This document shows positions 36,780 to 52,949 of a DNA stretch of 64,000 nt, piece by piece. Every line of letters starts with the position of its first letter. Positions within the stretch are counted from its first letter, which is position 1. The translations under genes and the position numbers were made by a program. The notes beneath the pieces were generated by a model that was not told the DNA's origin, made no database searches, and was given only the letters and a program-made list of their open reading frames with translations. This DNA comes from Desulforapulum autotrophicum (GTDB taxonomy: Bacteria > Desulfobacterota > Desulfobacteria > Desulfobacterales > Desulfolunaceae), in NCBI GenBank assembly GCA_020723285.1, contig DYJE01000019.1:15074-79073 (forward strand). The letters run 5' to 3'.

Positions 36780-38402
36780 CTAATGAGTCTGCGTGTTTAT
36801 GGGTGTTGCGGATTTGGACGCTGTTTCATGACCGTCCGGCACTGATTTGACAGAGGCCTTTCCGATCTTCTTGTTCAGATCCCACATCAAAGGTGTCTTG
36901 GGCGATAGCGGAATATACTTGAACCAGGGATGTGTCGTCATGTGTTTCGGATCCATCTGGAGTTCCCGGCTGTGTTTCAGAATCGGGGGCACCCGGGTTT
37001 TGATATCTTCACTGATGGACTTGGCTATGGTGAACGATGTGGCTTTAACCGCCGTGTCCACGGCATTCTGGCTGAAACGCTGCGATGAGGCCAGGGTATC
37101 AAGTGCTTTTGAGGGATTGTGGAACCCCACACTGTTTTCAGCGGATACAAGATCCCAGAAAAATTGGCCTTTACGGCACCATTTTCTCGCATTTGTCATC
37201 AACTCGTTGTAATTATCAGGCCTTGGTCCTTTGTATTCTGATGCCATGCGAATGGCTTCATGGGCTTTGACAGAAATCTCCTGGGCCGCCAGAAGTTGAT
37301 TCCATACCTTGTTCTGGGTATAGAGTACACGTTGTTTCAAAAATTCAGGGGTTTTGTCCGTATGACACTGACGGCATGCGTTCATTTCAGGATCTTTCAA
37401 TGGAGACGTCCAGTGGTGATTGGATATTTTCTTTTTTCCGTCAAGGCGTGTGTAGCTCATATGACAATCGGCGCAGGTTACACCTGCTGAGCCATGAACA
37501 CCGTTAGACCACGTTTCGTATTCCGGGTGCTGGGCTTTCAGCATGGGAGTCTGTGACACCGGATGTACCCAATCGACGAAGTACCCTTCAAATCCCGGTG
37601 TTTTATTGTCTCCCTTATCAGAATAGTAGTTATACATGTCTTCAGGGTCCATTCCGTCTTTCCACGGGAACACAACCTTTTTGTACGGTCCGAAACTCTT
37701 GTCCTGAAAATAGTATTCCACATGGCACTGACCACAAACCAAGGCCCGTTGTTCATTTCTTGGGAGTTTTTCAAATTCCTTGTTCTGGCTTTTCAAATAA
37801 TCCTTCAACGGCACACTGTACAGATTAAGGGCCATGGTCTTTGGATCATGACAGTTGGCGCAACCGATGGTGTCGTCGTCCAGATCGACTTTTTCCCGGA
37901 ACTGATTGAAATCTTTCGCCCAGAAATCATCGCCCTCTTCTTTGAGAAAAGTGTTCATTTTGGCGGTCTTGCAGTTCATGCACGTAGCCGGAAGGCCCGC
38001 TTTTTCGCTATATCTATTGACCCGGTCAATGCTTAAAATATCTTTCATGGCATGGGTGTGGCCTCGCGCTTCACGGTATTCATAACTGAACGGATACCCA
38101 AGCCAGAGGTTTTTTAAATAAGGCTGAGCGTGTTTATACCCTTCGGGGAGAGGATTGACATTGTCATGTTTGTTGTATGGAACCGAACCCTTATACTCGG
38201 TCATGATCTCTGATTCGTTATTCCTTAGATACGTTTCATACTGAAAAGGGAAAAGGGCCTGAAAGGCTGAATTTCTGATTTCATCTGTATTCAAATTGGT
38301 GCTGTAGGTTGGGGGAATGGGTTCATTGGCTTTTGAACAACCTCCCAGGGTCGCCATCAGCAAAACACATAAGAACAAAACGATCATTCGAAGATTACAC
38401 AT
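36780..38402 (-). CDS. nrfA: Pentahaem cytochrome c nitrite reductase NrfA
   Basis: CMNCK (the Lys-ligated catalytic haem signature) plus CANCH, CGQCH, CADCH and CRQCH. Lipobox-like LGGCS. The start at 38402 or 38387 is ambiguous, and the track ORF extends to 38450. Confidence 0.9.
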   Translation of the reverse strand: MCNLRMIVLFLCVLLMATLGGCSKANEPIPPTYSTNLNTDEIRNSAFQALFPFQYETYLRNNESEIMTEYKGSVPYNKHDNVNPLPEGYKHAQPYLKNLWLGYPFSYEYREARGHTHAMKDILSIDRVNRYSEKAGLPATCMNCKTAKMNTFLKEEGDDFWAKDFNQFREKVDLDDDTIGCANCHDPKTMALNLYSVPLKDYLKSQNKEFEKLPRNEQRALVCGQCHVEYYFQDKSFGPYKKVVFPWKDGMDPEDMYNYYSDKGDNKTPGFEGYFVDWVHPVSQTPMLKAQHPEYETWSNGVHGSAGVTCADCHMSYTRLDGKKKISNHHWTSPLKDPEMNACRQCHTDKTPEFLKQRVLYTQNKVWNQLLAAQEISVKAHEAIRMASEYKGPRPDNYNELMTNARKWCRKGQFFWDLVSAENSVGFHNPSKALDTLASSQRFSQNAVDTAVKATSFTIAKSISEDIKTRVPPILKHSRELQMDPKHMTTHPWFKYIPLSPKTPLMWDLNKKIGKASVKSVPDGHETASKSATPINTQTH

Positions 38403-38874
38403 CAGCAGCGCTCCTTTTCGCAATGGGGATTTTAGGACTGTGTGGAACATGACGGTGGCAATCCGTACAATGTGCTTTAGACTGCATATTCACTTCTTTG
38501 ACCACGGTGGAATGGCACCGGAGGCAGTTTTCCTGAACAACCTCCATCGTGTTTTTTCCGGGATGAATGTAATCGGGAACCTGTTTTGTGGCTGTCACAA
38601 ACATGTCCCTTGCACCTTCTTTGGTTTTAAAAGGGATTTTCCGGATTATATCATGTGGCGCATGACATTCGTTGCAGGCCTGTTTACTGTGAACAGATTT
38701 GCTGTGGGACAATGCGGCTTCCGCCATGGAGTGGCATCCGCCGCAGAATGCCGCCTGGTCCGTTGCTGTCATGGCGCGGGCTGAACACAAGGTGATCACA
38801 GCACCTGCCGCAAACGGCAACAGAATCAAAAGCCAGGCCTTTTCTCCCTTCATTTTCTTCCATGATAATGCCAT
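38395..38874 (-). CDS. nrfH: NapC/NirT-family tetrahaem quinol dehydrogenase NrfH
   Basis: One TM helix and four CXXCH motifs (CGGCH, CNECH, CLRCH, CTDCH). The ATG at 38874 is preceded by AGGAGG. Confidence 0.9.
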   Translation of the reverse strand: MALSWKKMKGEKAWLLILLPFAAGAVITLCSARAMTATDQAAFCGGCHSMAEAALSHSKSVHSKQACNECHAPHDIIRKIPFKTKEGARDMFVTATKQVPDYIHPGKNTMEVVQENCLRCHSTVVKEVNMQSKAHCTDCHRHVPHSPKIPIAKRSAADV

Positions 38875-38959
38875 GGAGCCTCCTTTGTTTTGTTTGAAAC
38901 AATCAGGATTCCTACGAAATACAACCAAACAACCACCAACTGCTATAACACCTTGAATC

Positions 38960-39655
38960 TTAGTGCGGGAGCATAAGCCCGCAAAGAACATCGTGCATCA
39001 CCCGGTTGATACGTTCAAACCGTTCAGGCTCTGAAAGTATTTCATGTTCAGCCTGGACAAAATAACTCCCATCCAGATCGGACCCGCAATGGTTTATCAA
39101 AGCCCTTGCCGATTCCATGGTCGTTTCCAGATGAAACTGTAACCCCACAATTCGGTTATCTTTGATAAACCCCTGATGGTCACAGGCCATGCTCGACGCA
39201 AGCGGCGTGGCTCCTTGGGGGATTTCAAACCGGTCTCCATGCCAGTGAAACACATTGAGCTTTTCAGGAAAGCATCCCGCCAGTACCGTATTGGAGATCC
39301 TGGGATCGATGGATAGTGGAAACCATCCAATTTCCCGGTGTTTGTTTTTAGTGACGGATGCGCCCATCACCTCTGCGATCAACTGGGCTCCAAGACAGAT
39401 GCCCAGAATCATTTTCCCGCGAGCAATGGCGTGTTTGATGAAGATTTTTTCATCATGCAAAAAGGGGTATTCTTTTTCGTCGTATACCCCCATGGGGCCA
39501 CCCATGATGATGAGAAAATCAAACGCATCCATATCCGGCAGGCGGTCGCCTCGGTACATATGGCTCGATGTCATCTCATGGTGGCCTGATAAAAAAAATG
39601 GTTCCATACTCCCAAGGTCTTCAAAGGGAACGTGTTGCAGATGATGGACACGCAT
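38960..39655 (-). CDS. Class I glutamine amidotransferase-like protein
   Basis: Nucleophile elbow GICLGAQL and a later FHLE His/Glu region. Confidence 0.7.
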   Translation of the reverse strand: MRVHHLQHVPFEDLGSMEPFFLSGHHEMTSSHMYRGDRLPDMDAFDFLIIMGGPMGVYDEKEYPFLHDEKIFIKHAIARGKMILGICLGAQLIAEVMGASVTKNKHREIGWFPLSIDPRISNTVLAGCFPEKLNVFHWHGDRFEIPQGATPLASSMACDHQGFIKDNRIVGLQFHLETTMESARALINHCGSDLDGSYFVQAEHEILSEPERFERINRVMHDVLCGLMLPH

Positions 39656-40370: not shown

Positions 40371-41423
40371 TTAACGGTTCTTTCCCATATGGGCAATAAA
40401 CATCCGGTATTGCTGGTCGGGAACGCTGCTTTTCCAATGCCCGGTAATGATGGCGGTATAGACCAGGATCAGGTATAAAGCGATAATCATAAGCCCCAGT
40501 TTTTTTTCCGTCCACCTCATTTTCAACCCGGTTGTTTTCAACATTAACGTTCCGTCAACCGGGCAACTGTCCACACAATCCATACAGCCGGTGCATTCCG
40601 GTGTTCTAACTTTTGGGATTTGCCCCACAAGGATATGATTCGGGCAGATGGCCGTACATTTACCGCATGCGATACATGATCCGTTATCCCTTGAAATATG
40701 TGTCGGGCCGGCATATGAAACAATCCCGGCCAGTGCCCCATAGGGGCAAAGATATCGGCACCAGAAATTCCGAACAAACAGGGAGAAACAGACGAGAAGG
40801 CTAAGGCAGATGAGAGTTGTTCCCGACATGTGGGTAAAAAACAACAGCATTCGCACATCGGACGTTTTATAGTAAAAACTATTGAGAAACGCATTGGTTT
40901 CAACAGTATTCATTTGTACAATAATCCATAGAAAAAACCCCAGAAAAATATATTTGACGCTTCTTAACGGCAGATCTACCCACCGTGGAAAAATGAAAGA
41001 GGGCATACCCCAATGATGGCCAAGCCTGAATATCCATTCCGACAAGGTGCCTACAGGGCAGAACCATCCGCAAAACGATTTGCTGAGCAGAAAAGAAGCC
41101 ACCAATGCGAATCCGAATATTACCATTGCCGCCGGATGAATACTGTCCCACTGAGCGGTGGTGATAAAATATTTCCAGCCCAGCAACGCACCAATGGGCA
41201 GGAAACCCTCAACGCCATGGGGTTTTGGAATGGTGATGGGCACTGCTTGCGCGGCTTGATGGACATACAAGGCGAATTGAACGCCTGTTGCAAGAGTCGC
41301 GATAAAAACACCCGTCTGGACCCATGACCGGACGCGGTGTCGATGAAACAATAGACTTAAGGTCTTTATCCGGCCACGATTCAAAGGTTGATTTTTTTTA
41401 TCGGAGATACCCATGACGTCCAT
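40371..41423 (-). CDS. NapH/MauN-type membrane polyferredoxin (quinol dehydrogenase-like)
   Basis: Two CX3CP motifs (CGWFCPVG, CRYLCPYG) in the membrane part, and two 4Fe-4S motifs (CIACGKCTAICP, CTGCMDCVDSCP). Confidence 0.75.
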   Translation of the reverse strand: MDVMGISDKKNQPLNRGRIKTLSLLFHRHRVRSWVQTGVFIATLATGVQFALYVHQAAQAVPITIPKPHGVEGFLPIGALLGWKYFITTAQWDSIHPAAMVIFGFALVASFLLSKSFCGWFCPVGTLSEWIFRLGHHWGMPSFIFPRWVDLPLRSVKYIFLGFFLWIIVQMNTVETNAFLNSFYYKTSDVRMLLFFTHMSGTTLICLSLLVCFSLFVRNFWCRYLCPYGALAGIVSYAGPTHISRDNGSCIACGKCTAICPNHILVGQIPKVRTPECTGCMDCVDSCPVDGTLMLKTTGLKMRWTEKKLGLMIIALYLILVYTAIITGHWKSSVPDQQYRMFIAHMGKNR

Positions 41424-42905: not shown

Positions 42906-43598
42906 CTAATGATGGTTGAATATTATTTTCAATACCTTTGGAATAAAAAAAGAACCGATAAAAAGAAATACCGATAAGAAGACGTTCCAGTTCAAAAGGC
43001 CGCTCAGGTCACCGCTGGCTAAAACGTTTTTAACCGTCCCCACGAAAAAAGTGAACACAAAAGTCCCCACGATAATCCCCAGAGCCGTTCCCGCAGTGTA
43101 ATCCCTGAAACGGACTTTTGTGAGGCCCATGCCGAAGTTCATGGGCGTGAAAGGGAAATACACCAGACGAAGGTAAAGAACCGTGGCAAAACCGTTGCGT
43201 TCAATGGCGTCGTCGTACTGTTTCAGTTTTCCGCCGATGAGGCTTTCCGCGAAATCCCGGCCCAGGTAACGCCCGATGAAAAAGGCGAGGCTTGCGCCGA
43301 TCATGGCCCCGGTCCAGACCCAGAGGAACCCCCAATAAGGGCCGAACACGGCAGCCCCGATGGCGGCGAGCAGGGTGCCCGGAAGAAAAAGGCAGACCCC
43401 CGCCGCATAAATCAGGACATAAACAAGGGGAGCCCACAACCCGGCAGAGTCAAGAAGAAGGGCGAGCCGTTCTGCCGTCACATGGTTTTTAAGGGGTGAA
43501 AAACGGAGCAGCGTCACCGCCGCGATCATAAAGCAAACGAGAAGCGCCGCTTTGATCCATGGCCGTTTGGCCCTTTGTTTCACATTGAGATCAGGCAT
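42906..43598 (-). CDS. TVP38/TMEM64 (DedA-related) family membrane protein
   Basis: Multi-TM protein whose sequence (FLPGTLL, GRYLGRDF) I recognise as typical of the family. Confidence 0.7.
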   Translation of the reverse strand: MPDLNVKQRAKRPWIKAALLVCFMIAAVTLLRFSPLKNHVTAERLALLLDSAGLWAPLVYVLIYAAGVCLFLPGTLLAAIGAAVFGPYWGFLWVWTGAMIGASLAFFIGRYLGRDFAESLIGGKLKQYDDAIERNGFATVLYLRLVYFPFTPMNFGMGLTKVRFRDYTAGTALGIIVGTFVFTFFVGTVKNVLASGDLSGLLNWNVFLSVFLFIGSFFIPKVLKIIFNHH

Positions 43599-43610: not shown

Positions 43611-43928
43611 TTATTTTCCAAGAATTCGGTTCAAAAGCCCTTTTTTTTCGAGATGGGGTTCGGGAAGCCCGAGATGTCGGCAGATGCAGACTTCGACCTC
43701 GTGTTCGGAGATGTCGGCCCCTTCGACAACGACTTCGTCCCCCACCATGACCGCCGGGGCTACCGGAAGATCCAGATCGAAGTATTCGTCAGTCTGGTAC
43801 TCATCCTTGGGTTTGGATGTCACGGTGATGTCAACGTCATACTTTCCGCCCAGCCTGGGCATCATCTTTTTGAAGTTCTTTCAAGGTCTTCCGTTGGGTT
43901 CATTCAGAAAAAAACGGATATTCAGCAT
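43611..43928 (-). CDS. Candidate small thioredoxin-fold selenoprotein (in-frame TGA at 43881-43883)
   Basis: Strong RBS AAGGAGAACACC-ATG at 43928. Reads MLNIRFFLNEPNGRP-U-KNFKKMMPRL... in frame with the track ORF 43611-43865, which itself has no RBS. The C-terminal LPVAPAVMVGDEVVVEG resembles the cis-Pro/beta3-beta4 region of small thioredoxin-like proteins. Confidence 0.6.
43848..43860 (-). other. SECIS-like hairpin GCCCA-GGC-UGGGC, 20 nt after the UGA
   Basis: Read directly from the minus strand. Confidence 0.4.
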
Positions 43929-43940
43929 GGTGTTCTCCTT

Positions 43941-45704
43941 TTATGGTTTTGTGCTTTCTTTCGAAATGCGGTTCATGTGGACCAGGAATTTTTCAGGGGG
44001 TAAATAATCCACCAGCCTCAGATCATTTCGTTCCTCACCGGCAGAATCGAGGAACACCAGGGTGGGGACGCCCTTGATGCCGTACTGTTTAAGCAACTGT
44101 TCGTGATTCGGATCGCCACCCTGGGTTACATCAACTTTGACCATGGTGAACGTGTCTTTTGTTTTTCTGACCACGTCGGGGTGGTGGAACGTCACCGTGT
44201 CAAGTTCGCGGCACGGGGTGCACCAGTCGGCGTAAAAATCAATGATGACAGGGCGTTTTTCTGCTGCGGCTTTTTGAAGAACAGCCTCGGAGTATGGCTG
44301 CCAGGCTACACCTGGTCCTTTCATCATCCATGCGGTGATCCACATCGAAGCGGTGATAAGACACACACAACCAGTGGCGGCTTTGACAATTGAGAACACC
44401 TTCGACCCTGTTTCTGTTTTTTCCAGCCAGCCCAGGTGAATGCCAGCGGATAATGCGAGGGCCGCAGGCAGAAGAACTTTCAGCCCTTCGGGGAGGACTG
44501 GTCGGATGAAATGGGCCGCCATGCCCACAAGAACCCAGCCCATGAGTTTTCGGACCCAGATCATCCAGCCGCCTGCGCGGGGAAGTCGTTGAAGCTGACC
44601 GGAGAAGAGGGCAAGGATGAAAAGGGGAAGCCCTAGTCCAAGGCTCAATGTGAAAAATACAAGAAAACCCATGAAGGCGCTGCCCATACCTGCCACCCAG
44701 GTCAGAAGTCCCAGCACAAAGGGACCGATGCAGGGGGCGGCAACAACGCCGATGGTCAGCCCCATGAACAGGCTTCCGAAATAGCCGCTGTACGAGCGAC
44801 CGGCCATCCGGGTCATGGCTCCGGGCAGGCGAAGTTCCCAGAATCCGAAAAGACTGGTGGAGAACAGGATGAGAAAACCAGCGACAAAAGAAAGCACCAG
44901 GGGATTCTGGAGCATTGACCCCATCAGGCCGCCGGTCAGGGCCGCAGCCACCCCAAGGATGGAATTGGTGAGGGCGAGGCCCAAAAGGTAGCAGAGGCCG
45001 TGGAGAACAAGGACAAACTGACCTGGCCTGCTGTCGGCTGTTTTGCCTCCAAAAAACGACACAGTGATGGGGATCATGGGATAGACACACGGGGTTAAAT
45101 TCAGGGCGAGACCGCCGAAAAAGATGCCCAGAAGCGTGAGAAAAAGGCCCCAGCCTTTGACAGACCTTCCGGAATACGATCCCGATGCATCTTTCGGTGA
45201 CAGGGCAAGATCCACGGGGGTTGTTCCATAGGGCATGCCACGCTGCTGCCATTCTGGGAAACCATAGGGATCGCGGTAAACGTGACGGTAACCGAGTTTA
45301 ACGGCCACACGGGCCGCCGAGTCGCTGCGGACTCATGTAAGGCCCGCTCAGTAGAACACAATGCCCCGGTTTTTGTCCGGACCCAGAAATTTCCCGAGGG
45401 ATTCAGACTTACGCCACCTGGCCCACCCGGTGGGTTCCATGGGGAAATTCACCGCGCCCTTCATGTGGCCGGTCCGGAATTCCCATTCCTGGCGAGTGTC
45501 CACCAGAAGCAAACCGGACGGATTCTCCCGGTATTTTTGAATGAGTTCGTCGGTTTTAAGGATCGTGTAGCCGCCCCTTGCCGCCTCGGCGAGCACATCG
45601 TCCCATGTGGCCTGTTTCGGTGTGGCCGGGCGCTGGATAGACCAGACGGAAGCCACCGCAACGGCCACTGCGAGTAACGTCAGTAAAAAGGATGTTTTTT
45701 TCAT
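43941..45704 (-). CDS. Candidate selenoprotein: signal peptide - rhodanese (Y-U-AGLT-U-VRS) - DsbD/CcdA membrane domain - thioredoxin fusion, with two in-frame TGA codons (45348-45350 and 45333-45335)
   Basis: Track ORFs 45348-45704 and 43941-45308 are in the same frame, separated only by TGA-GCG-GGC-CTT-ACA-TGA. The rhodanese fold continues across both TGAs (IVFY|U|AGLT|U|VRSDSAARVAVKLGYRHVYRDPYGFPEWQQRGMPY). The DsbD-beta motifs TPCVYPMIP and AAPCIGPF and the C-terminal WCTPC thioredoxin motif are present. Confidence 0.65.
45302..45316 (-). other. SECIS-like hairpin after the second rhodanese UGA
   Basis: CGGCC-CGUGU-GGCCG starting 16 nt after the UGA. It overlaps the lower stem of the previous structure, so the two are alternative folds. 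Confidence 0.35.
45311..45345 (-). other. SECIS-like stem-loop after the first rhodanese UGA
   Basis: GGGCC-UUACAU-GAGUC-CGCAGC-GACUC-GGC-GGCCC. The upper stem starts 13 nt after the UGA. Confidence 0.4.
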
Positions 45705-45730: not shown

Positions 45731-46060
45731 TTAGTGAGTCCAGTCCATGATCTTGAAATCTTCACCCAGTTTTTTTTGAACAGCATCCCGGATCATTGAA
45801 AAATGTGGGCAAGGCATACCGATTGGGTTTCCCTTTGAAATGCATGATGCAAAAACAATAGCTTCGGCCCCACGATCAACCATGAGTTTTGCCCTTTGAA
45901 TGGATCGTTTGCCTGGACATCCGCCACAACTGACAAAACCTATGATTTCAACCGGTCCGGTGGCTTCAAACGCCATTTTCCCAGTGGAAGCGACTTTAAA
46001 ATCCGTCGTACCGGGGCACATATCCTCGGTCTGTTGACACCTGATAATTCCAACTTTCAT
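45731..46060 (-). CDS. CGGC-domain protein
   Basis: VSCGGCPGKR signature plus additional conserved Cys residues. RBS AGGAGA. Confidence 0.7.
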   Translation of the reverse strand: MKVGIIRCQQTEDMCPGTTDFKVASTGKMAFEATGPVEIIGFVSCGGCPGKRSIQRAKLMVDRGAEAIVFASCISKGNPIGMPCPHFSMIRDAVQKKLGEDFKIMDWTH

Positions 46061-46063
46061 CGA

Positions 46064-46726
46064 TCATCTCCTAAGTGTATTTTCAAACAAAAGAGTCACA
46101 AAACCTTCGTCCAGCGATTCTTTTCCAAGTTCATTCATGCCTTCTGGGGGCGGTAGAATGCTGGATTGTTCCTTTCTGAACAAGAAACCGGCTTCCTCTG
46201 CCATGGCTTTGACCTCATCCCTTTGATAGAATCTGGCGTGTCTGTAAATAACATGCCCTTTCTTGCCTCTTGCGGAATGGTACAGCCCCCAGGCGCTGTT
46301 TGACGGAACAAAGCCGATGATAAGGCGTCCCCGCCTTTTGAGCACACGGCTGCATTCACGAAGCACCCGTAAAGGATCATGGAGAAAGCAGAGGGTGCAC
46401 ACCATCAGCAGTCCGTCAAAAGAAGTATCTTTGAACGGCAGGTGTTCTCCCATGGCCTGGCAGGTCATAATGCCCCTACTGGACGCGATCATTGCCATGG
46501 ATCGCGAAGGCTCCACACTATGGCCGATGCCGAATGCCTGAGCGAAACGTCCTGAACCCGAACCCACCTCCAGCCATTTTCCCGTCGGGACCCCGAGGAT
46601 CTGATTCAGGGCTTCACGTTCCTGTGAAAAAATGAAAGACCCTTTTTCAGAGTCAAACCAGTGGTCGTATTCTTCCGCAAAATCGTCAAAAGGGTTGTTC
46701 CAAATCGACATGCCGCACGATTCCAC
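46064..46726 (-). CDS. Class I SAM-dependent methyltransferase
   Basis: Motif I LEVGSGSGRF and a Methyltransf_11-like layout. The start may instead be the ATG at 46711. Confidence 0.75.
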   Translation of the reverse strand: MESCGMSIWNNPFDDFAEEYDHWFDSEKGSFIFSQEREALNQILGVPTGKWLEVGSGSGRFAQAFGIGHSVEPSRSMAMIASSRGIMTCQAMGEHLPFKDTSFDGLLMVCTLCFLHDPLRVLRECSRVLKRRGRLIIGFVPSNSAWGLYHSARGKKGHVIYRHARFYQRDEVKAMAEEAGFLFRKEQSSILPPPEGMNELGKESLDEGFVTLLFENTLRR

Positions 46727-46728
46727 GA

Positions 46729-47037
46729 TTACCCCCGTCCCCAGAGCGGATCGTCACCGAACCGTTCTTGCCAAAGTTCTTCGGGAGTCAGGTTTTCACC
46801 CACGGACACTTCGGAAAAAGAAAAACGATAATTGGCGCAGTACTCCGTGATGGTCTTGTACGCGGCCACGATCTTTCTGGTCATGTCCGCACAAGTTTCC
46901 GGGTTGTCCCGACATCGGTCCGGATGCCATTTCGCCAGCATGGCCCGGTACGCCGATTTGACGGTTTTCAGGCTGGCTGTTTCAGGAAGACCAAGGATCG
47001 TCCGCGCTTCCGTGATCTCCTGGTATTTTTTCAGCAT
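46729..47037 (-). CDS. J-domain (DnaJ-like) protein
   Basis: LGLPETASLKTVKSAYRAMLAKWHPDR, including the HPD tripeptide. Confidence 0.75.
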   Translation of the reverse strand: MLKKYQEITEARTILGLPETASLKTVKSAYRAMLAKWHPDRCRDNPETCADMTRKIVAAYKTITEYCANYRFSFSEVSVGENLTPEELWQERFGDDPLWGRG

Positions 47038-47492
47038 GATTCGTCCCGTCGTCCTTCCCGCTCAAGCTTCGATATCATAAACGTCGCGCCTCTTTGGGAC
47101 AGCCCCAGGGTTTCGGCCAGGGTTTTCACATCCAGCGAACCCTTCTCTCGCCTGAGCGAAAGGACTTCGTCCTCAAGTTCCTCGAACCAGTCCTCGAACA
47201 GGACAAGCAGGTCCGGGTCGGTTATGGCCGACAACTGCCTGGATTGGGCCACTTTGTCCACCAGACTCTGGCACATCTTTGTTGGGTCGATACCTTCGCC
47301 CATGCATTCAGCGATTCAGAGGTGGACCATTCCGGACATCTTGTCATCGCCAGAATCGTCCAGAAGATTCATGAAAAACCGAGTTGCCGCGTCTTTGTCC
47401 ATCACTGAGAAAAGCTTTTTCAGCGTACTTCCGATGTCCTTCAGCGCCTGTTCCGGGTCCATGTTTTCGACGATGTTCAGAATATTTTTCAT
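47031..47492 (-). CDS. Candidate selenoprotein with a U-x3-C motif (in-frame TGA at 47316-47318) and a winged-helix-like C-terminus
   Basis: RBS AAGGAAG precedes the ATG at 47492. 58 codons are followed by TGA and then IAEC-MGEG..., in frame with track ORF 47031-47303, which has no RBS. The gene starts 19 nt after the arsR stop. Confidence 0.6.
47284..47301 (-). other. SECIS-like hairpin GGGCGA-AGGUA-UCG(A)CCC, 14 nt after the UGA
   Basis: Read directly. It has a GGU-containing apical loop and a single bulged A. Confidence 0.4.
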
Positions 47493-47511: not shown

Positions 47512-47847
47512 TTAAAACGTCTTCCGTGCTTTCAACAGATCTTCCGCCACGGTGTTCAGCGACCGGATCACGTCCAGTATTTTTTTGTCTGCCAGCTCGT
47601 AAAAAACAAAAGGGCCGCTTCGTTCTACATTTAATAGAATCGACCGTTTCAATTCCTTGAGATGATGCGACACAAGAGGCTGTGAAATACCAATTTCTTC
47701 CACGATCTGACCCACGGATTTCTTGCCTTGGCCAACGTAAAGCAAAATACGTAGTCGGTTTGGATCGGAAAGGGATTTAGCCAACAGAGAAACGCATTGA
47801 AGATAATCGTCATTTAGCATTTTTGCTTTCTTGATCAAAAAAATCAT
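47512..47847 (-). CDS. ArsR/SmtB-family transcriptional regulator
   Basis: DPNRLRILLYV...VGQIVEEIGISQPLVSHHLKELK winged-HTH signature. The canonical ELCVCDL metal-binding site is absent. Confidence 0.85.
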   Translation of the reverse strand: MIFLIKKAKMLNDDYLQCVSLLAKSLSDPNRLRILLYVGQGKKSVGQIVEEIGISQPLVSHHLKELKRSILLNVERSGPFVFYELADKKILDVIRSLNTVAEDLLKARKTF

Positions 47848-47873: not shown

Positions 47874-47893
47874 ATATAAATATTCATTTATAT
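47874..47893. promoter_or_regulatory. Operator-like palindrome ATATAAAT-ATTC-ATTTATAT upstream of arsR
   Basis: 8-bp perfect arms, 27 nt upstream of the arsR ORF start. An adjacent TTGATAT direct repeat lies at 47852-47869. Confidence 0.35.
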
Positions 47894-48074: not shown

Positions 48075-48249
48075 TTTTCACACAAAGCGTGATTCGGGAT
48101 AGGAGTTTTCACGATTCCGGTGGTAAATTTCACACAAAGCGTGATTCGAAAATTAAGCTTTTACGATCACAGATTTTTTTGATAATCGGATTTGCACGAT
48201 CCGGGAAAGAGCAGTTTGCACGGCTACAACGAAAAGTTTTCACGATTCC
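48075..48249 (+). repeat. Array of seven same-orientation TTT(T/G)CAC(G/A)-type repeats at the right edge of the insert
   Basis: Copies start at 48075, 48106, 48128, 48159, 48191, 48215 and 48237, spaced 22-32 bp apart. 48075-48127 and 48128-48180 form an imperfect 53-bp tandem. The last copy supplies the new fdhA stop codon. Confidence 0.7.
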
Positions 48250-50864
48250 CAGCAGTTACCTTCCCTGAAATGAAACGCCATCCACACCATGCCGGCCGGA
48301 ACTTCGTCGGTGATCCGGGCTTTGACCGAAACAGCGCCGCGCCGTGAGGAAACCCTGATGACCTCCCCGTCGGCGATGCCCATGCGACGGGCATCATCGG
48401 CCGAGATGTCGGCGGTCTCCTCACCGAGAAGCTCGTTCAGCCCTTGGGTTCTGCCGGTCTGGGTCCGGGTGTGGTAATGGTACAGGCGTCGGCCTGTGGA
48501 GAGAACCAAGGGGTATTCCGTGTCCGGCACTTCCGCAGGCGGGGTCCACACTGCCGGGGTGATGTTGCCTTTGCCGCAGGTGAAATTCCCGTTCAGGTGG
48601 AGAATGGCCGTACCGGGGTGTTCTTTGGTCGGACAGGGCCACTGGAGGCCGTCTCCCTCGATCCGCCCAAACGTGATTCCGGCGAAAATCGGGCAGAGCG
48701 CGGCGATCTCCCTGTCCCAGATGTCCTTGGAACTGGCGGAGGTCCAGGTGTGGCCCATGCGTCTTGCAATCTCCCGGAATATCCACCAGTTGGGCCGAGC
48801 CTGGCCCGGCGCGGGACAGGCTGCCCTAACGCGGCTCACCCTGCGCTCGCAGTTGGTGAACGTGCCGTCATCCTCGCTCCAGGCCGCAGACGGAAACACC
48901 ACATGGGCGAACCGTGTGGTTTCCGTTTCGAAGATATCCTGGCAAACCAGGAATTCCGCGCTGGAGAGTTCATGTTCCACCTTGGCGATATGGGGTTCCG
49001 CGCTGGCCAGGTTTTCGCCGAAAATGTACAGCGCCCGGATCTTCTTCGTCACCAGCCCTTCGAGCATCTGGGGGATCATCAGGCCGTTTTTATCCGGAAG
49101 GTCCTGAACGTTCCATGCGTCTTCGAATTTTTTCCGGGCTGCTGCGTCGGTCACGCTCTGGTATCCGGGAAACACGTTGGGCAGCGCCCCCATGTCACAG
49201 GCTCCCTGCACGTTGTTCTGCCCGCGTAAGGGATTCACCCCGCCGCATTCCACGCCCAGGTTCCCCAGAAGCATCTGGAGATTGGCCACCGACGCCACGT
49301 TGTCGCGGCCGCAGGTGTGTTCGGTGAGGCCCAGGGTGTACATCAGCATCATGGGTTTCACCGATGCGGCCATACGGGCTGTCCTGACAATCAGATCGCT
49401 GGGAATGCCACAGATTTCAGCCGCTTTTTCCGGCGTGTAATCCATGACGGTTTCCCTGAGTTTTTCAAAGTTCACCGTGTGGTTTTCGATGAATGCCTTG
49501 TCGTACAGGTTTTCCGTGATGAGGACGCGCATCACGCCGTTCAGAAACGCGATGTCCGTGCCCACTTTGATCTGGACGAACAGGTCGGCAAACCGGGCCA
49601 GGGTGTGTTTTCTCGGATCGACCACAATCAGTTTCGCACCCTGACGCACAGCGTTCTTGACAAACGTCGACGCCACGGGATGGGCCTCGGTCATGTTGGC
49701 TCCGATGACAAAGAACATCTTGGCGTTTTTCACTTCCTTCAGGCTGTTGGTCATGGCCCCGGATCCGAAGGTGGTGGCGAGCCCGGCCACGGTGGGCGCG
49801 TGGCAGACCCTGGCGCAGTGGTCGATGTTGTTGGTCTTGAACACGGCCCTGAACAGCTTCTGCATCTGGTAGGAATCTTCGTTGATGCTCCGGGCGCAGC
49901 TGACCCCGGCCACGGCATCCGGCCCATGCTCGGCAATGATCCGTGAGAAGGTGGACGCCACAAGATCAAGGGCCTCGTCCCAGGACGCGGGTTCAAGCAC
50001 GCCGTTTGTCCGGATCAGCGGGGTTTTCAGGCGGTCTGGGGAACTGATGAAATCATAGCCGAAACGCCCTTTGACACACAGGCGGCCCTGGTTGGGTTCG
50101 GCATTTTCCACGGCTGAAATATGAACGATTTTTCCATTCTTCACATGAAGCATCTGCTGGCAGCCCACCCCGCAGTACGGGCAGGTGGTTCTGACGCTTT
50201 GGGTCTCGCACAGCCGGGGCTTCTGAAAAGCGTCTTTCGGGACCAGAGCGCCGACGGGACAGGCCTGGATGCACTGGCCGCAGAACACACAGTCCGAATC
50301 CTTGAGGGCCATGTCGCCCTTGGCGATGATTTTCGTTTTCGCCCCACGGTATCCGAAGTCGATGGCGTCGTTCACCTGGATTCCCCGGCAGGCCTGGACA
50401 CACCGGCCGCAGAGAATGCATTTGGCGAAATTGCGAACGATCAGGGGGTTTACCGCTTCCATGGGGTAGGACGTGCGGGTGTCCGGGTATCTTCCGCCCT
50501 TGACCTGATAGCGGTAAGCCAGCTCCTGAAGCCGGCAGCCTCCGGACGCCGGGCAGACGAGACAGTCGTCGTGTCTGCCTGATGAAAGCATCAGTTCGAC
50601 GATGGTCTTTCGGGACTGGATGACCACCGGGGAGTCGGTACGGACCACCATACCTTTGGCCGCCGGAACAGTGCAGGCCGTCATCAGACTTCGCGCGCCC
50701 TCGACCTCCACCACGCAGATCCGGCAGGCCCCCGTGGGTGTGGTGTCTTTCAGGTGGCAAACCGTAGGGATGTCTATACCCGCGTTGCGGGCGGCTTCAA
50801 GTATGGTCTGACCCGGACTGAACACCACGTCCCGGCCGTTGATCACCAACAGGTTTTCGCTCAT
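48240..50864 (-). CDS. fdhA: Formate dehydrogenase alpha subunit (NuoG-like Fe-S N-terminus plus molybdopterin domains), Cys-type, 3'-truncated by insertion
   Basis: 2Fe-2S and 4Fe-4S motifs at the N-terminus. The active-site region HCARVCHAPTVAGL has Cys where Sec-type enzymes have U. The protein ends ...MAFHFREGN-CWES-stop and lacks the conserved NxLT...PEFK.CAV..EK tail, which is found at 32004-32102. Confidence 0.85.
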   Translation of the reverse strand: MSENLLVINGRDVVFSPGQTILEAARNAGIDIPTVCHLKDTTPTGACRICVVEVEGARSLMTACTVPAAKGMVVRTDSPVVIQSRKTIVELMLSSGRHDDCLVCPASGGCRLQELAYRYQVKGGRYPDTRTSYPMEAVNPLIVRNFAKCILCGRCVQACRGIQVNDAIDFGYRGAKTKIIAKGDMALKDSDCVFCGQCIQACPVGALVPKDAFQKPRLCETQSVRTTCPYCGVGCQQMLHVKNGKIVHISAVENAEPNQGRLCVKGRFGYDFISSPDRLKTPLIRTNGVLEPASWDEALDLVASTFSRIIAEHGPDAVAGVSCARSINEDSYQMQKLFRAVFKTNNIDHCARVCHAPTVAGLATTFGSGAMTNSLKEVKNAKMFFVIGANMTEAHPVASTFVKNAVRQGAKLIVVDPRKHTLARFADLFVQIKVGTDIAFLNGVMRVLITENLYDKAFIENHTVNFEKLRETVMDYTPEKAAEICGIPSDLIVRTARMAASVKPMMLMYTLGLTEHTCGRDNVASVANLQMLLGNLGVECGGVNPLRGQNNVQGACDMGALPNVFPGYQSVTDAAARKKFEDAWNVQDLPDKNGLMIPQMLEGLVTKKIRALYIFGENLASAEPHIAKVEHELSSAEFLVCQDIFETETTRFAHVVFPSAAWSEDDGTFTNCERRVSRVRAACPAPGQARPNWWIFREIARRMGHTWTSASSKDIWDREIAALCPIFAGITFGRIEGDGLQWPCPTKEHPGTAILHLNGNFTCGKGNITPAVWTPPAEVPDTEYPLVLSTGRRLYHYHTRTQTGRTQGLNELLGEETADISADDARRMGIADGEVIRVSSRRGAVSVKARITDEVPAGMVWMAFHFREGNCWES

Positions 50865-50897: not shown

Positions 50898-52832
50898 TTA
50901 TGTGTGACAAACCTCCGCAAGAATCCGTAAATCCCCGTTCCGTACCGTGAATCCCACAGAATCCAGGTATTCGAAAACAGGGACGGACGTGCTGCGGCTG
51001 TTTCCCGTAATCTCTTGACAATCGGCCAGGCAGACACTCCCGTGATTCAGGATGTGGCCTTTAACCCGTGTTTTGATGCGTTCCATCGTCCTTACGCTGA
51101 TGAACCGGTTGTTGTTCAGCTTGACCAGCAGATTCAGGCTGTGGAGAAAATAGCTCATCCGCCTGACCTTGTCTTCGTTCCAGGGTCCCTCGGTCTCCCG
51201 GCAGAACCGGCTGACACTGAACGGAACGGAACCCGACTGTTCCGCATAACCCAGAAGCCGCGCCTTCAGGCGTTCTTCGTCATCGGTGAGGGTGATGGAA
51301 AACCCCGGAACAGTATACCCGCCCTGGCTGCGGATCAGGCGGCCTTTTCCGCAGAGCGCCCGGACCGCCTCCTGAATCAGGTCCATGGAAACGGGGCGGT
51401 CCAGCGCGTCGCGGATCTCGTTTGAATTCACCTGACTTTTCAGGGATCCCTGCTCCACTGTCCGCCGTGCGGCGTGATACACCCGCTCCACGAGCTCCGG
51501 GACATAATCGGACAGGTACACGCCACCATCGCCGGTTTTCATGACCGTTCTGTCCGCCTGTTTTCTGTTGAACGCTTCGCGGATCCGTTCAAGGGAAAAA
51601 CCGGACCGCGCCGCAAGGTCCTGTGCGAAAACCGGTGCGTTCACCGACTGAACAAGAACGGCGTCGACAAAACCTTCGGCATCATCGGACTGAAGTGCAT
51701 CGAGAACGGGGAGTATCCGCCCGGCGCGGTTTTCCGTGTATTTTTCCACCGGAATTTCAAGAATGACACCGCCTCCGATGATCCGGTTCCGGTTCATCAG
51801 GGCCACGACAAAGCGGTCTCGGGGATCAATGCTCACAGGCTCGGAAAACCGGAACTGAACAAACGCGCGGTTTCCGGGGTGTATCCCCTGCTGTTTCATC
51901 ACCACAGCCACAGCGTTCACACACAGGGTTCCGATGTACAGTTTGACCCGCATCCGGTTGTTCAGCGGGGTTCCGGCCGAAGCAAGAACACGCACATCGG
52001 CGTTGGCCAGCGAGGATACGACCCCGGTGCCGGGTTGCCTGAGACTCATGCCCCGGCATACATCCGTGAGGGTGGTTTTGTTGAGATTGATCCCTATGCG
52101 CTGCCCCGCTGCGGCATGATCCACCCGGACGCCATGGGATTCAAGAAACCGCGCCCGTGTTTTCAGGCCCGAAGGCATGATCTCCACCTGCTCGTCCCGG
52201 TTCAGCGTTCCTGACAGCACCGTTCCGCTGACCACCGTTCCAAATCCACTGATTCCGGTGATCCGGTCGATCCACAGACGGAACGGCCGGAGATGGCTCC
52301 GGCATGCCATGCGGCAGGCCTCTTTCATGATGCTGTCCCGGATCTGAGCGGACCCTGAAAGGTCCATGGCGGAAAAGGCCACGACCTCCTTTCCCTCAAG
52401 AAAACTACCATGGATCAGCTCACGGATTTCCAGTTCAGCCAGCTCCAGCGTTTCATCGTCCACAAGATCGGATTTGGTCAGGACCACCAGTCCGCCTTTG
52501 GCGCTGAAAAATTTCAGTATTTCAAGATGTTCCACGGTCTGAGGCATCACCCCGTCGTCCGCGGCCACGATCAGCAGGGCCAGATCCACGCCGCTCAGTC
52601 CGCGCACCGTATTCCGAAGAAAATCCGTATGGCCGGGGACATCCACCAGGGCCAGACTGATCCCGTTTTCGGAAAGCCAGGATGCGATGCCCGACTCCAT
52701 GGACATGCCGCGCCGCTGTTCTTCTTTCATCCGGTCTGTGTCAACGCCGGTAAGGCACCGGACCAGGGTGGTTTTCCCATGATCCACATGCCCGGCGACA
52801 CCGATGGTGATATATTGCGTCATATCGTTCAA
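50898..52832 (-). CDS. selB: Selenocysteine-specific translation elongation factor SelB
   Basis: GTPase motifs AGHVDHGKTTL and DVPGH, the TKSD box, and a long C-terminal winged-helix extension. It is adjacent to tRNA-Sec. Confidence 0.9.
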   Translation of the reverse strand: MNDMTQYITIGVAGHVDHGKTTLVRCLTGVDTDRMKEEQRRGMSMESGIASWLSENGISLALVDVPGHTDFLRNTVRGLSGVDLALLIVAADDGVMPQTVEHLEILKFFSAKGGLVVLTKSDLVDDETLELAELEIRELIHGSFLEGKEVVAFSAMDLSGSAQIRDSIMKEACRMACRSHLRPFRLWIDRITGISGFGTVVSGTVLSGTLNRDEQVEIMPSGLKTRARFLESHGVRVDHAAAGQRIGINLNKTTLTDVCRGMSLRQPGTGVVSSLANADVRVLASAGTPLNNRMRVKLYIGTLCVNAVAVVMKQQGIHPGNRAFVQFRFSEPVSIDPRDRFVVALMNRNRIIGGGVILEIPVEKYTENRAGRILPVLDALQSDDAEGFVDAVLVQSVNAPVFAQDLAARSGFSLERIREAFNRKQADRTVMKTGDGGVYLSDYVPELVERVYHAARRTVEQGSLKSQVNSNEIRDALDRPVSMDLIQEAVRALCGKGRLIRSQGGYTVPGFSITLTDDEERLKARLLGYAEQSGSVPFSVSRFCRETEGPWNEDKVRRMSYFLHSLNLLVKLNNNRFISVRTMERIKTRVKGHILNHGSVCLADCQEITGNSRSTSVPVFEYLDSVGFTVRNGDLRILAEVCHT

Positions 52833-52857: not shown

Positions 52858-52949
52858 TGGAAGGGGCAAGGGGAATCGAACCTCCTCTTTGCGTTTCAGG
52901 CAAAGCCGACGGTTTTGAAGACCGCGGGGCGCCCAGCACCATTGCCCCT
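52858..52949 (-). tRNA. selC: tRNA-Sec (anticodon UCA)
   Basis: 92 nt with anticodon loop CUUCAAA, a long variable arm (CGGCUUUGCCUGAAACGCAAAGAGG), T-loop GGTTCGATTCC, an 8-bp acceptor stem AGGGGCAA/TTGCCCCT and an encoded CCA. Folded by eye only. Confidence 0.8.

What the first reader, a model, noticed from the sequence alone, without database searches (positions are those of the whole stretch)
47031..47492. U-x3-C protein with a winged-helix-like tail directly downstream of arsR
Seen: RBS plus the ATG at 47492, then 58 codons (MKNILNIVENMDPEQ...KMSGMVHL), then TGA, then IAE-C-MGEGIDPTKMC..., in frame with track ORF 47031-47303. A bulged hairpin with a GGU loop begins 14 nt after the UGA. 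The C-terminal part (LDVKTLAETLGLSQRGATFMISKLEREG) resembles a wHTH. Inference: this may be a Sec/Cys redox- or metalloid-sensing small DNA-binding protein or chaperone. I cannot assign it to any known selenoprotein family.
Basis: partly seen in the sequence, partly recalled or inferred. Interest (0 to 1): 0.75.

Follow-up and report, generated by a model that had tools for sequence, protein, structure and literature searches.

The report
TsoA selenoprotein gene, already catalogued
The interrupted reading frame is a real selenocysteine-containing protein, but it belongs to the TsoA family that NCBI curators described in 2025, so it is a correct call of a known gene whose biochemical function is still untested.

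Summary
On the minus strand, 47492..47031 is one 153-codon frame with a single in-frame TGA at 47318-47316. A bulged hairpin with a GGU loop follows 13 nt later, and SelB and tRNA-Sec lie in the same window.

With U written as C, the protein scores 218 bits (cut-off 170) on NCBIfam NF045695, "LULAXC motif selenoprotein TsoA". The arsR upstream is TsoR. Downstream lie TsoB (two Sec) and TsoC (one Sec), which makes this the published "three selenoprotein operon" (Haft & Tolstoy 2025, cited in PMC13188914).

Of 80 homologous loci from Desulfobacterota genomes, 79 keep the TGA. Codons between the TGA and the next ATG change only synonymously. The hairpin codons show almost no synonymous change and carry compensatory base-pair substitutions. 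No Cys-for-Sec orthologue was found.

The C-terminus is a helix-turn-helix without a clear wing, and it stays below Pfam thresholds.

Function is inferred only. Sec59, Cys63 and Cys74 (plus His57) probably form a soft metal(loid) or chalcogen-binding site that works with TsoR, which has no conserved Cys. Distant Met-rich relatives are also paired with ArsR-type genes, and one sits next to ArsM.

Novelty: already known. Interest is low to moderate.

The parts
47031..47492 (-). tsoA: 153-codon gene (58 codons, UGA = Sec59, 94 codons, stop). Central motif VHL-U-IAEC-MGEGIDPTKMC.
   Evidence: Translation. NF045695 seleno_TsoA, E 5.9e-65, 218 bits against cut-off 170, model positions 1-144 of 144.
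47316..47318 (-). In-frame TGA read as selenocysteine (Sec59).
   Evidence: TGA sits at the aligned codon in 79 of 80 homologous loci. The four codons between it and the next ATG (L/I-A-E-C) change only synonymously.
47283..47302 (-). Bacterial SECIS-type hairpin: 7 pairs, bulged A, loop AGGUA. It occupies nt 17-36 counted from the U of UGA.
   Evidence: Fold. Near-zero synonymous variation in its codons. Compensatory changes G20:C33 to A:U (L073, L079, L083) and U17:A36 to C:G (L036); 97.4% of cells paired; 0 of 500 shuffles as high. The distant Sec homologue in L083 has a hairpin at the same position with a different stem sequence and GGU in the loop.
47512..47847 (-). tsoR: ArsR/SmtB-type regulator immediately upstream. 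The start is probably the ATG at 47820. It has no conserved Cys.
   Evidence: NF045707, 151 bits against cut-off 115. Directly upstream of tsoA in 79 of 80 loci. No conserved Cys column across 80 TsoR sequences.
47874..47893 (-). Palindrome ATATAAATGAATATTTATAT upstream of tsoR. Candidate operator, lying just downstream of a TTGACT at 47913-47908.
   Evidence: Inverted repeat I3. The pattern ATATAA-N8-TTATAT occurs within 300 nt upstream of tsoR in 24 of 80 loci, against 43 of 2801 background windows. Its function is inferred.
46729..47037 (-). J-domain (DnaJ-like) small protein. Its ATG overlaps the end of tsoA (ATGCTGA).
   Evidence: Pfam DnaJ, E 5.5e-11. Follows tsoA directly in 13 of 80 loci.
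46064..46726 (-). SAM-dependent methyltransferase. Accessory gene inserted between tsoA and tsoB.
   Evidence: Pfam Methyltransf_11, E 3.1e-16. Weak hit to the DVU_1556 family.
45731..46060 (-). CGGC-domain protein. Accessory gene inserted between tsoA and tsoB.
   Evidence: Pfam CGGC, E 5.1e-29.
43941..45704 (-). tsoB: signal peptide, rhodanese, DsbD membrane domain and thioredoxin domain. Two Sec codons (TGA 45350-45348 and 45335-45333) give Y-U-AGLT-U-VRS.
   Evidence: Translation. Both codons are TGA. NF045694, 950.8 bits against cut-off 805 once read through.
43611..43928 (-). tsoC: small NEPxGxxU selenoprotein. Sec codon TGA at 43883-43881.
   Evidence: Motif scan. Translation. NF045708, 148.8 bits against cut-off 45.
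42906..43598 (-). Membrane protein after tsoC, probably DedA/SNARE-associated type judging by its sequence. It recurs after tsoC.
   Evidence: tblastn finds a relative downstream of tsoC in 19 of 80 loci. No NCBIfam hit. The family name is my reading of the sequence and was not tested.
50898..52832 (-). selB: selenocysteine-specific elongation factor.
   Evidence: TIGR00475, 277.6 bits against cut-off 242.25.
52858..52949 (-). tRNA-Sec (anticodon UCA).
   Evidence: ARAGORN. Rfam RF01852, 51.1 bits against gathering score 47.

Best explanation
Identity (shown; about 0.95). This is tsoA, the first structural gene of the tsoR-tsoA-...-tsoB-tsoC 'three selenoprotein operon' of a Desulfobacterota genome. 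The UGA at 47318-47316 is decoded as selenocysteine by SelB and tRNA-Sec, both encoded 3.5-5.5 kb upstream. Decoding is directed by a short hairpin 13 nt downstream that carries GGU in its loop and a bulged A. The product is a 153-residue, all-helical protein. Its N-terminus is hydrophilic and shows no signal-peptide-like stretch, so it is probably cytoplasmic.

Function (inferred; about 0.4). The only three Cys-type residues of the family are Sec59, Cys63 and Cys74, and they are invariant. Invariant His57 and Met73, and near-invariant Met64, sit beside them. Together they probably form a soft-ligand site for a metal(loid) or a reactive chalcogen species. Three chalcogenolate ligands is the geometry used for As(III) by ArsR, ArsD and ArsM (established knowledge). 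TsoR has no conserved Cys and so has no canonical sensing site of its own. TsoA would therefore act as the ligand-sensing or ligand-handling partner of TsoR, with its conserved C-terminal HTH contacting either DNA or TsoR. The pair would control, or feed, whatever selenoprotein cargo follows it: TsoB and TsoC here, and DsrE-like selenoproteins, TsoX or Sec-containing ArsM elsewhere.
For: Identity:
- NF045695, 218 bits against cut-off 170, full length.
- TsoR, TsoB and TsoC all score above their cut-offs.
- The family and operon are named in review PMC13188914.
- SelB and tRNA-Sec lie in the window.
- TGA is kept in 79 of 80 species loci.
- The codons between the TGA and the next ATG change only synonymously, and the hairpin codons show almost no synonymous change.
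- The hairpin shows covariation, and a hairpin sits at the same position in a homologue that is 26% identical.

Function:
- 78 of 80 sequences have exactly three Cys-type residues, and V56-H57-L58-U59-L60-A61-E62-C63 together with M73-C74 are kept in at least 95% of the 80 sequences.
- TsoR has no conserved Cys.
- tsoR is adjacent to tsoA in 79 of 80 loci, whatever follows.
- The cargo varies but is nearly always a selenoprotein, and ArsM-like genes occur in several loci.
- Four distant relatives were looked up. The three Met-rich ones each sit beside an ArsR-type gene, and one is followed by ArsM at 361 bits.
- The C-terminal HTH is modelled at pLDDT 75-90, with local Foldseek matches to the wHTH domains of Lrp/AsnC, MntR and FeoC.
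- The FeoC Pfam model is passed by two distant relatives.
Against: - No experiment on any TsoA was found in the held literature. The primary paper could not be read.
- The structure model is of a 60%-identical homologue with Trp in place of Sec. Its motif region (residues 47-71) has pLDDT below 50, so the proposed site geometry is not modelled.
- Foldseek E-values are all above 0.1, and the HTH Pfam hits on this protein are below threshold.
- The Met-rich relatives keep only Cys74. That fits thioether-type ligation such as Cu(I) or Ag(I) better than As(III), so the ligand may differ across the superfamily.
- No TsoR-TsoA contact has been tested.
Confidence: 0.8

Rival explanations
1. Cytoplasmic redox relay. 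Sec59 and Cys63 form a selenenylsulfide redox pair, and TsoA passes electrons (or sulfane sulfur or selenium) to the DsbD-like membrane domain of TsoB and to TsoC. This would mirror thioredoxin feeding DsbD.
For: - TsoB carries a DsbD transmembrane domain plus a thioredoxin domain, and it follows tsoA in 59 of 80 loci.
- All the alternative cargo proteins (DsrE-like, TsoX, TsoC) are thiol or selenol proteins.
- Sec is typical of redox sites (established knowledge).
Against: - The TsoR-TsoA pair persists where TsoB and TsoC are absent.
- Distant relatives lack the U/C pair altogether but keep the ArsR partner and the HTH.
- There is no thioredoxin-like fold. The model is all-helical, and U-x3-C is not a known oxidoreductase motif.
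- A conserved HTH has no obvious role in an electron carrier.
Confidence: 0.2
2. Selenium-supply checkpoint. TsoA mainly reports whether UGA can be decoded. When selenium is scarce, translation stops at codon 59, no HTH-bearing protein is made, and the downstream selenoprotein genes stay off or suffer polarity. Costly genes with several UGA codons would then be expressed only when Sec insertion works.
For: - At least 69 of 73 TsoR-TsoA modules with enough downstream sequence are followed by further selenoprotein genes of unrelated families.
- No Cys-for-Sec orthologue was seen in 80 species loci or among the database hits examined. Obligate use of UGA is unusual.
- The UGA lies upstream of the whole HTH domain.
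- tsoA overlaps the next gene's start codon.
Against: - Cys63, Cys74 and His57 around the Sec are also invariant. That points to chemistry at the site rather than mere decoding.
- The Met-rich relatives have no UGA at the aligned site, and those looked up keep the same ArsR pairing.
- Desulfobacterota encode many selenoproteins anyway, so Sec-rich neighbours are partly expected.
- No precedent is known to me.
Confidence: 0.12
3. Not one protein. The TGA is a true stop or a pseudogene lesion, giving a 58-residue peptide and a separate 90-residue HTH protein that starts at the ATG at 47303.
For: Automatic gene callers split it this way. Most database entries are 86-residue C-terminal or 58-residue N-terminal fragments. 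The hairpin in this one sequence folds no better than shuffles.
Against: - The two halves are in frame with a TGA, never TAA or TAG, in 79 of 80 species. The one exception has Arg.
- L-A-E-C between the TGA and the ATG stays constant while its third codon positions vary.
- The hairpin shows covariation.
- The read-through product matches a curated full-length model above its cut-off.
- SelB and tRNA-Sec are next door.
Confidence: 0.02

Closest known systems
TsoA, 'LULAXC motif selenoprotein' (NCBIfam NF045695; Haft & Tolstoy 2025, mSystems 10:e0141724, as listed in review PMC13188914)
   Same: - Full-length match above the curated cut-off.
- Sec in the L-U-[L/I]-A-x-C motif.
- TsoR immediately upstream, with TsoB (UxxxxU) and TsoC (NEPxGxxU) downstream.
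- Desulfobacterota host.
   Different: - Ile instead of Leu after the Sec (LUIAEC), unique among the 81 sequences compared.
- An extra C-terminal Cys153.
- Three accessory genes (J-domain, methyltransferase, CGGC) inserted between tsoA and tsoB. In most loci tsoB follows tsoA directly.
Small winged-helix proteins of the FeoC / MarR / HTH_24 type
   Same: The C-terminal 40-45 residues are modelled as a three-helix HTH and superpose locally on the wHTH domains of Lrp/AsnC, MntR, Zalpha and FeoC. Two distant relatives pass the FeoC Pfam threshold.
   Different: This protein is below every Pfam HTH gathering score. The chain ends a few residues after the recognition helix, so no beta wing is modelled. 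DNA binding is untested.
ArsR-ArsD pair of ars operons (repressor followed by a three-Cys As(III) metallochaperone and weak repressor)
   Same: The gene order is an ArsR-type regulator followed by a small protein with three soft ligands. ArsM genes are linked in some loci. This is a working analogy from established knowledge of ArsD.
   Different: There is no sequence or fold relation. ArsD has a thioredoxin-like fold, TsoA is all-helical, and no ArsD hit appeared in Pfam or NCBIfam. TsoA uses Sec and carries an HTH. TsoR lacks the As-binding cysteines.
E. coli fdhF-type bacterial SECIS
   Same: A hairpin shortly after the UGA with GGU in the apical loop and one bulged base. The UGA-to-loop distance is about 20 nt, inside the 16-37 nt range used by bacterial SECIS searches (from my own knowledge of that literature).
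   Different: The stem is very short at 7 pairs. The bulge is an A on the 3' side, not a U on the 5' side. The longer lower stem drawn in some homologues is not supported by covariation and is absent here.

Membership tests
TsoA (NCBIfam NF045695) | Whole-protein HMM score at or above the curated cut-off (170 bits), matched end to end | tested here: met
   218 bits, E 5.9e-65, protein residues 4-147 on model positions 1-144 of 144, with U written as C.
TsoA (NCBIfam NF045695) | LULAxC motif with the U encoded by an in-frame UGA | tested here: met
   The window reads L-U-I-A-E-C with TGA at 47318-47316. 79 of 80 relatives read [LRF]-U-L-A-E-C. The Leu-to-Ile change is conservative.
TsoA (NCBIfam NF045695) | Operon context: TsoR upstream, TsoB and TsoC selenoproteins downstream | tested here: met
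   TsoR 151 bits against 115. TsoB 950.8 against 805. TsoC 148.8 against 45. Three accessory genes are intercalated.
TsoA (NCBIfam NF045695) | Sec-decoding capacity: SECIS after the UGA, plus SelB and tRNA-Sec in the genome | tested here: met
   Hairpin with covariation. SelB. tRNA-Sec. SelA and SelD were not looked for.
TsoA (NCBIfam NF045695) | Selenocysteine actually present in the protein | not testable with these tools
   This needs 75Se labelling or mass spectrometry.
Winged helix-turn-helix DNA-binding domains (Pfam HTH_24, MarR, Fe_dep_repress, FeoC) | Score at or above the Pfam gathering threshold | tested here: not met
   15.6-16.8 bits against cut-offs of 21.9-26. Some close homologues carry a precomputed PF13412 hit. 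Two distant relatives pass FeoC.
Winged helix-turn-helix DNA-binding domains (Pfam HTH_24, MarR, Fe_dep_repress, FeoC) | Three-helix bundle followed by a beta-hairpin wing | tested here: inconclusive
   Helices 93-117, 122-129 and 133-145 are modelled at pLDDT 75-90. The chain ends at residue 149 with no strand (model of homologue P0001). Foldseek gives local matches only, all with E above 0.1.
ArsR/SmtB metal-sensing repressors (for the upstream TsoR) | Conserved Cys or His ligand sites (alpha3, alpha3N or alpha5) for direct metal sensing | tested here: not met
   Across 80 TsoR sequences no Cys column is conserved; one position has Cys in 35 of 80. Only the HH of the recognition helix is invariant. 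The HTH_5 fold itself is met.
ArsD metallochaperone | Sequence or fold similarity to ArsD (thioredoxin-like fold) | tested here: not met
   No ArsD family among Pfam or NCBIfam hits at E up to 1. The model is all-helical.

The most novel reading that the evidence does not exclude
TsoA may be the selenocysteine-based sensory subunit of a two-protein metalloid or chalcogen sensor. Its partner, the ArsR-type repressor TsoR, has lost its own ligand cysteines. The pair would belong to a wider ArsR-partner superfamily that I did not find described in the literature I could search or read. That superfamily includes Met-rich, Sec-free forms, one of which lies next to arsenite methyltransferase. The TsoR-TsoA module would then be a portable switch placed in front of different selenoprotein cassettes. 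I could not read the primary 2025 paper, so part of this may already be stated there.
Probability: 0.3. Interest if true: 0.6.

Novelty: already known. Interest (0 to 1): 0.25.

Why it matters
This gene shows how standard gene callers mis-annotate selenoproteins. Here they would report a 58-residue and a 90-residue fragment for tsoA, a rhodanese and a DsbD for tsoB, and would miss or truncate tsoC. One operon thus hides four Sec codons, so the first-stage read was a correct de novo detection.

The family is already curated, so this adds no new kind of system. What stays open is the chemistry. The protein is apparently an obligate Sec protein with no Cys orthologue found, it carries exactly three chalcogen ligands and an HTH, and it is almost always paired with a Cys-less ArsR-type regulator in front of other selenoprotein genes. 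If that pair senses arsenic, selenium or reactive sulfur, it would be a new sensing arrangement for the ArsR family.

Tried and rejected
1. None were found. The 12 full-length database hits all carry Trp at the site. Alignment with the TGA of the genomic loci and a direct check on the contig of the distant Trp-carrying homologue P0139 indicate that this is TGA read as Trp.

2. Structure prediction of the window's own protein. I modelled the 60%-identical homologue P0001 instead. Mean pLDDT was only 65, and the motif region was below 50.

3. Foldseek against the PDB. No match reached E of 0.001 or better; only local HTH matches appeared. A PDB sequence-profile search gave nothing meaningful.

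4. The primary paper (Haft & Tolstoy 2025). It is not held under its PMC id, DOI or PubMed id. Everything about it comes from the review PMC13188914.

5. Literature searches for locus tags or TsoR, and for ArsM plus methionine-rich proteins. Both returned nothing relevant.

6. A longer lower SECIS stem (nt 4-8 with 47-51), drawn by single-sequence folds of several homologues. It is not supported by covariation and is absent in the window.

7. An exact operator pattern with fixed 6-nt spacing. It matched no locus. A looser palindrome did.

8. The GAATCGTGAAAA repeats upstream of tsoR. Window-wide enrichment is marginal: 19 matches against 9.7 expected, and 1 of 100 shuffles did as well. I dropped them as an explanation.

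9. I corrected it to 47318-47316 and repeated the alignment.

Full report
**Observation**

On the minus strand, the stretch 47492..47031 is one reading frame. It has 58 codons (MKNILNIVENMDPEQ...KMSGMVHL), a single TGA at 47318-47316, then 94 codons (IAECMGEGIDPTKMC...EREGRRDESC) ending at the stop of the listed ORF 47031-47303. An AGGAAG lies 10 nt before the ATG. A hairpin lies 13 nt after the UGA, at 47302..47283: U-GGG-CGA [AGGUA] UCG-(A)-CCC-A. It has a bulged A and GGU in the loop. The 64-nt segment does not fold better than shuffled sequence (z = -0.03), so the hairpin in this one sequence proves nothing. The same window holds tRNA-Sec (52858-52949) and SelB (50898-52832; TIGR00475, 277.6 bits against 242.25). 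The organism can therefore decode UGA as selenocysteine.

**What it is**

With U written as C, the 153-residue protein matches NCBIfam NF045695, "LULAXC motif selenoprotein TsoA". The match is end to end: E 5.9e-65 and 218 bits against a curated cut-off of 170. The neighbours fit the same system:
- The arsR-like gene upstream (47847..47512) is NF045707, "ArsR/SmtB-type metalloregulator TsoR", at 151 bits against 115.
- The rhodanese ORF and the DsbD-like ORF downstream are one gene, 45704..43941, interrupted by two TGA codons to give Y-U-AGLT-U-VRS. Read through, it scores 950.8 bits against 805 for NF045694, TsoB.
- A small gene at 43928..43611 reads MLNIRFFLNEPNGRP-U-KNF and is NF045708, TsoC, at 148.8 bits against 45.

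A 2026 review lists TsoA, TsoB, TsoC, TsoX and TsoY. [quoted passage not shown] I could not obtain that primary paper.

**Independent test of read-through**

- A protein search returned 702 relatives. Most are 86-residue C-terminal fragments that start at the Met after the TGA. The 12 full-length entries all show Trp at the Sec position.
- That Trp is TGA translated as Trp by the gene caller. I checked this directly on one contig.
- A scan of one genome per species found relatives in 298 genomes. The 80 loci kept carry Desulfobacterota or deltaproteobacterial labels, apart from two MAGs labelled only Pseudomonadota, and each match spans the TGA.
- The aligned codon is TGA in 79 of 80 loci. One MAG has Arg there.
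- The four codons between the TGA and the next ATG encode an invariant L-A-E-C while their third positions vary: GCC/GCG/GCA/GCT, GAG/GAA and TGC/TGT. That is the signature of a translated segment.
- No Cys-for-Sec orthologue appeared here or in an exhaustive profile search of 1.84 billion representative proteins.

**The SECIS**

- Codons +6 to +10 (GGC GAA GGT GTC GAC) form the hairpin. Their synonymous entropy is 0-0.17 across 80 distinct sequences. Other invariant residues in the same gene show about 0.6-2.1.
- On 27 distinct sequences, the 7-pair hairpin is paired in 97.4% of cells, and 4 pairs show changes on both sides. G20:C33 becomes A:U in L073, L079 and L083. U17:A36 becomes C:G in L036. 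None of 500 shuffles reached these values, and the versions with slid partners fall far below the observed values.
- A distant Sec-containing homologue (26% identity; motif EH-U-IQTC) has a hairpin at exactly the same distance. Its stem sequence differs (AGGAUUC-CGGUGU-GAAUCCU), and GGU is again in the loop.
- A longer lower stem seen in some single-sequence folds is not supported.

**Anatomy of the protein**

- Across 80 sequences, 78 contain exactly three Cys-type residues: Sec59, Cys63 and Cys74. The stretch V56-H57-L58-U59-L60-A61-E62-C63 is kept in at least 95% of sequences, as are G65-E66-G67, D69-P70-T71 and M73-C74.
- The window's copy is unusual in having Ile60 and an extra C-terminal Cys153.
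- An AlphaFold2 model of the 60%-identical homologue P0001 is all-helical.
- The motif region is poorly modelled (pLDDT below 50). The C-terminal 50 residues are modelled well (pLDDT 75-90) as a long helix followed by a helix-turn-helix. The chain ends four residues after the last helix, so no wing is present.
- Foldseek gave only local matches of 40-45 residues, all with E above 0.1, to the wHTH domains of Lrp/AsnC, Zalpha, MntR and FeoC.
- Pfam HTH hits on this protein are below threshold. No solved structure is related by sequence.
- "HTH-like tail" is therefore supported. "Winged" and "DNA-binding" are not shown.

**Context across genomes**

- tsoR lies directly upstream of tsoA in 79 of 80 loci. 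tsoB follows in 59 and tsoC in 50, usually with no gene between tsoA and tsoB.
- The window is atypical because three genes sit between tsoA and tsoB: a J-domain protein whose ATG overlaps the tsoA stop, a methyltransferase and a CGGC-domain protein.
- Where TsoB is absent, the pair is followed by other selenoprotein genes. These are DsrE-like proteins with ...VDL-U-GTC or ...Y[CS]-U-G[TS]C, TsoX (128.8 bits against 52), and ArsM-like methyltransferases with an in-frame TGA.
- In all, at least 69 of 73 loci with enough downstream sequence carry further Sec genes.
- TsoR has no conserved cysteine.
- A palindrome of the form ATATAA-N8-TTATAT occurs upstream of tsoR in 24 of 80 loci, against 43 of 2801 background windows. 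The window's copy is at 47893-47874.

**A wider family**

The profile search also found Met-rich proteins of 115-250 residues, such as P0158, P0173 and P0177, at 20-31% identity. They lack the U-x3-C but keep the "P-x-E-M-C" cysteine, the LFEEW helix and the C-terminal HTH, here with a longer tail. They score 65-72 bits on the TsoA model, well below its cut-off. The three I looked up are each preceded by an ArsR-type gene; two of those regulators were scanned and score 90-94 bits on the TsoR model, below its cut-off. One is followed by an arsenite methyltransferase at 361 bits against 263.

**Mechanism**

- Shown: the gene is a single Sec-containing ORF of the TsoA family with a conserved SECIS.
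- Inferred, at about 0.4: Sec59, Cys63 and Cys74, with His57 and the flanking Met residues, bind a soft metal(loid) or reactive chalcogen species. TsoA then acts with the Cys-less TsoR as the sensing or handling partner that governs or feeds the downstream selenoprotein cargo.
- Rival 1, about 0.2: a selenenylsulfide redox relay toward TsoB and TsoC.
- Rival 2, about 0.12: a selenium-supply checkpoint that works through UGA decoding.
- Rival 3, about 0.02: two separate peptides.
- The Met-rich, Sec-free relatives with the same ArsR pairing argue against the checkpoint and the pure redox models.
- The invariance of the ligand set argues for site chemistry. No experiment exists in the literature I could search.

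**Verdict**

Novelty is "already known". Interest is low to moderate (0.25) because the biochemical role of this apparently obligate Sec protein and its ArsR partner is still open.

Noticed in passing
window 43941-45704 (-): tsoB is a double selenoprotein. A periplasmic rhodanese domain with Y-U-AGLT-U-VRS (TGA at 45350-45348 and 45335-45333) is fused to a DsbD membrane domain and a thioredoxin domain. A standard gene caller would report a separate rhodanese and DsbD.
   Followed up: yes
window 43611-43928 (-): tsoC is a small NEPxGxxU selenoprotein (TGA at 43883-43881). It is followed at 43598-42906 by a membrane protein that recurs after tsoC in 19 of 80 loci and looks DedA-like. That family name was not tested.
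   Followed up: partly
window 45731-47037 (-): Three genes are inserted between tsoA and tsoB: a J-domain protein with several Cys whose ATG overlaps the tsoA stop, a SAM methyltransferase and a CGGC-domain protein. Most other loci have tsoB directly after tsoA. The J-domain gene follows tsoA in 13 of 80 loci.
   Followed up: partly
window 47874-47893 (-), and upstream of tsoR in L001, L003, L008, L012, L026 and others: The palindrome ATATAAAT-N4-ATTTATAT lies just downstream of a TTGACT. The pattern ATATAA-N8-TTATAT occurs upstream of tsoR in 24 of 80 loci against 1.5% of background windows. It is a likely TsoR operator.
   Followed up: partly
window 48076-48249: The fdhA-tsoR intergenic region holds two 40-nt direct repeats (TTTCACACAAAGCGTGATTCG..., 80% identical, 52 nt apart) and two exact copies of AGTTTTCACGATTCC 131 nt apart. 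Their function is unknown. Window-wide enrichment of the core motif is marginal.
   Followed up: partly
window 48240-50864 (-): The formate dehydrogenase alpha subunit next to selB is the Cys type (…HCARVCHAPT…) rather than the Sec type, although it lies beside the Sec-decoding genes.
   Followed up: partly
L084-L089, L081-L082 (proteins P0158, P0173, P0177): Met-rich, Sec-free distant relatives of TsoA keep the 'MC' cysteine and the C-terminal HTH. Each lies directly after an ArsR-type gene, and in L084 the next gene is an arsenite methyltransferase (361 bits). This looks like a wider ArsR-partner superfamily.
   Followed up: partly
L005, L016, L018, L021, L027, L056, L065, L080 (downstream of tsoA): In loci without tsoB and tsoC, the tsoR-tsoA pair is followed by other selenoprotein genes. 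These are DsrE-like proteins with U-G-T-C motifs, TsoX, and ArsM-like methyltransferases with an in-frame TGA (SWAG-U). L018 (and, by sequence, L005 and L016) also carries a dihydrolipoyl-dehydrogenase/MerA-like flavoprotein.
   Followed up: partly
L023:2446-2892: One Desulfocapsaceae MAG has Arg (VHLRLAEC) where all the others have TGA. This could be a one-base change from TGA, a sequencing error or an inactivated copy.
   Followed up: no
window 36780-38991 (-): NrfH-like and NrfA-like cytochrome c nitrite reductase genes, with sub-threshold scores, lie about 5 kb beyond the operon. A NapH-like ferredoxin-type membrane protein lies at 40371-41423.
   Followed up: no
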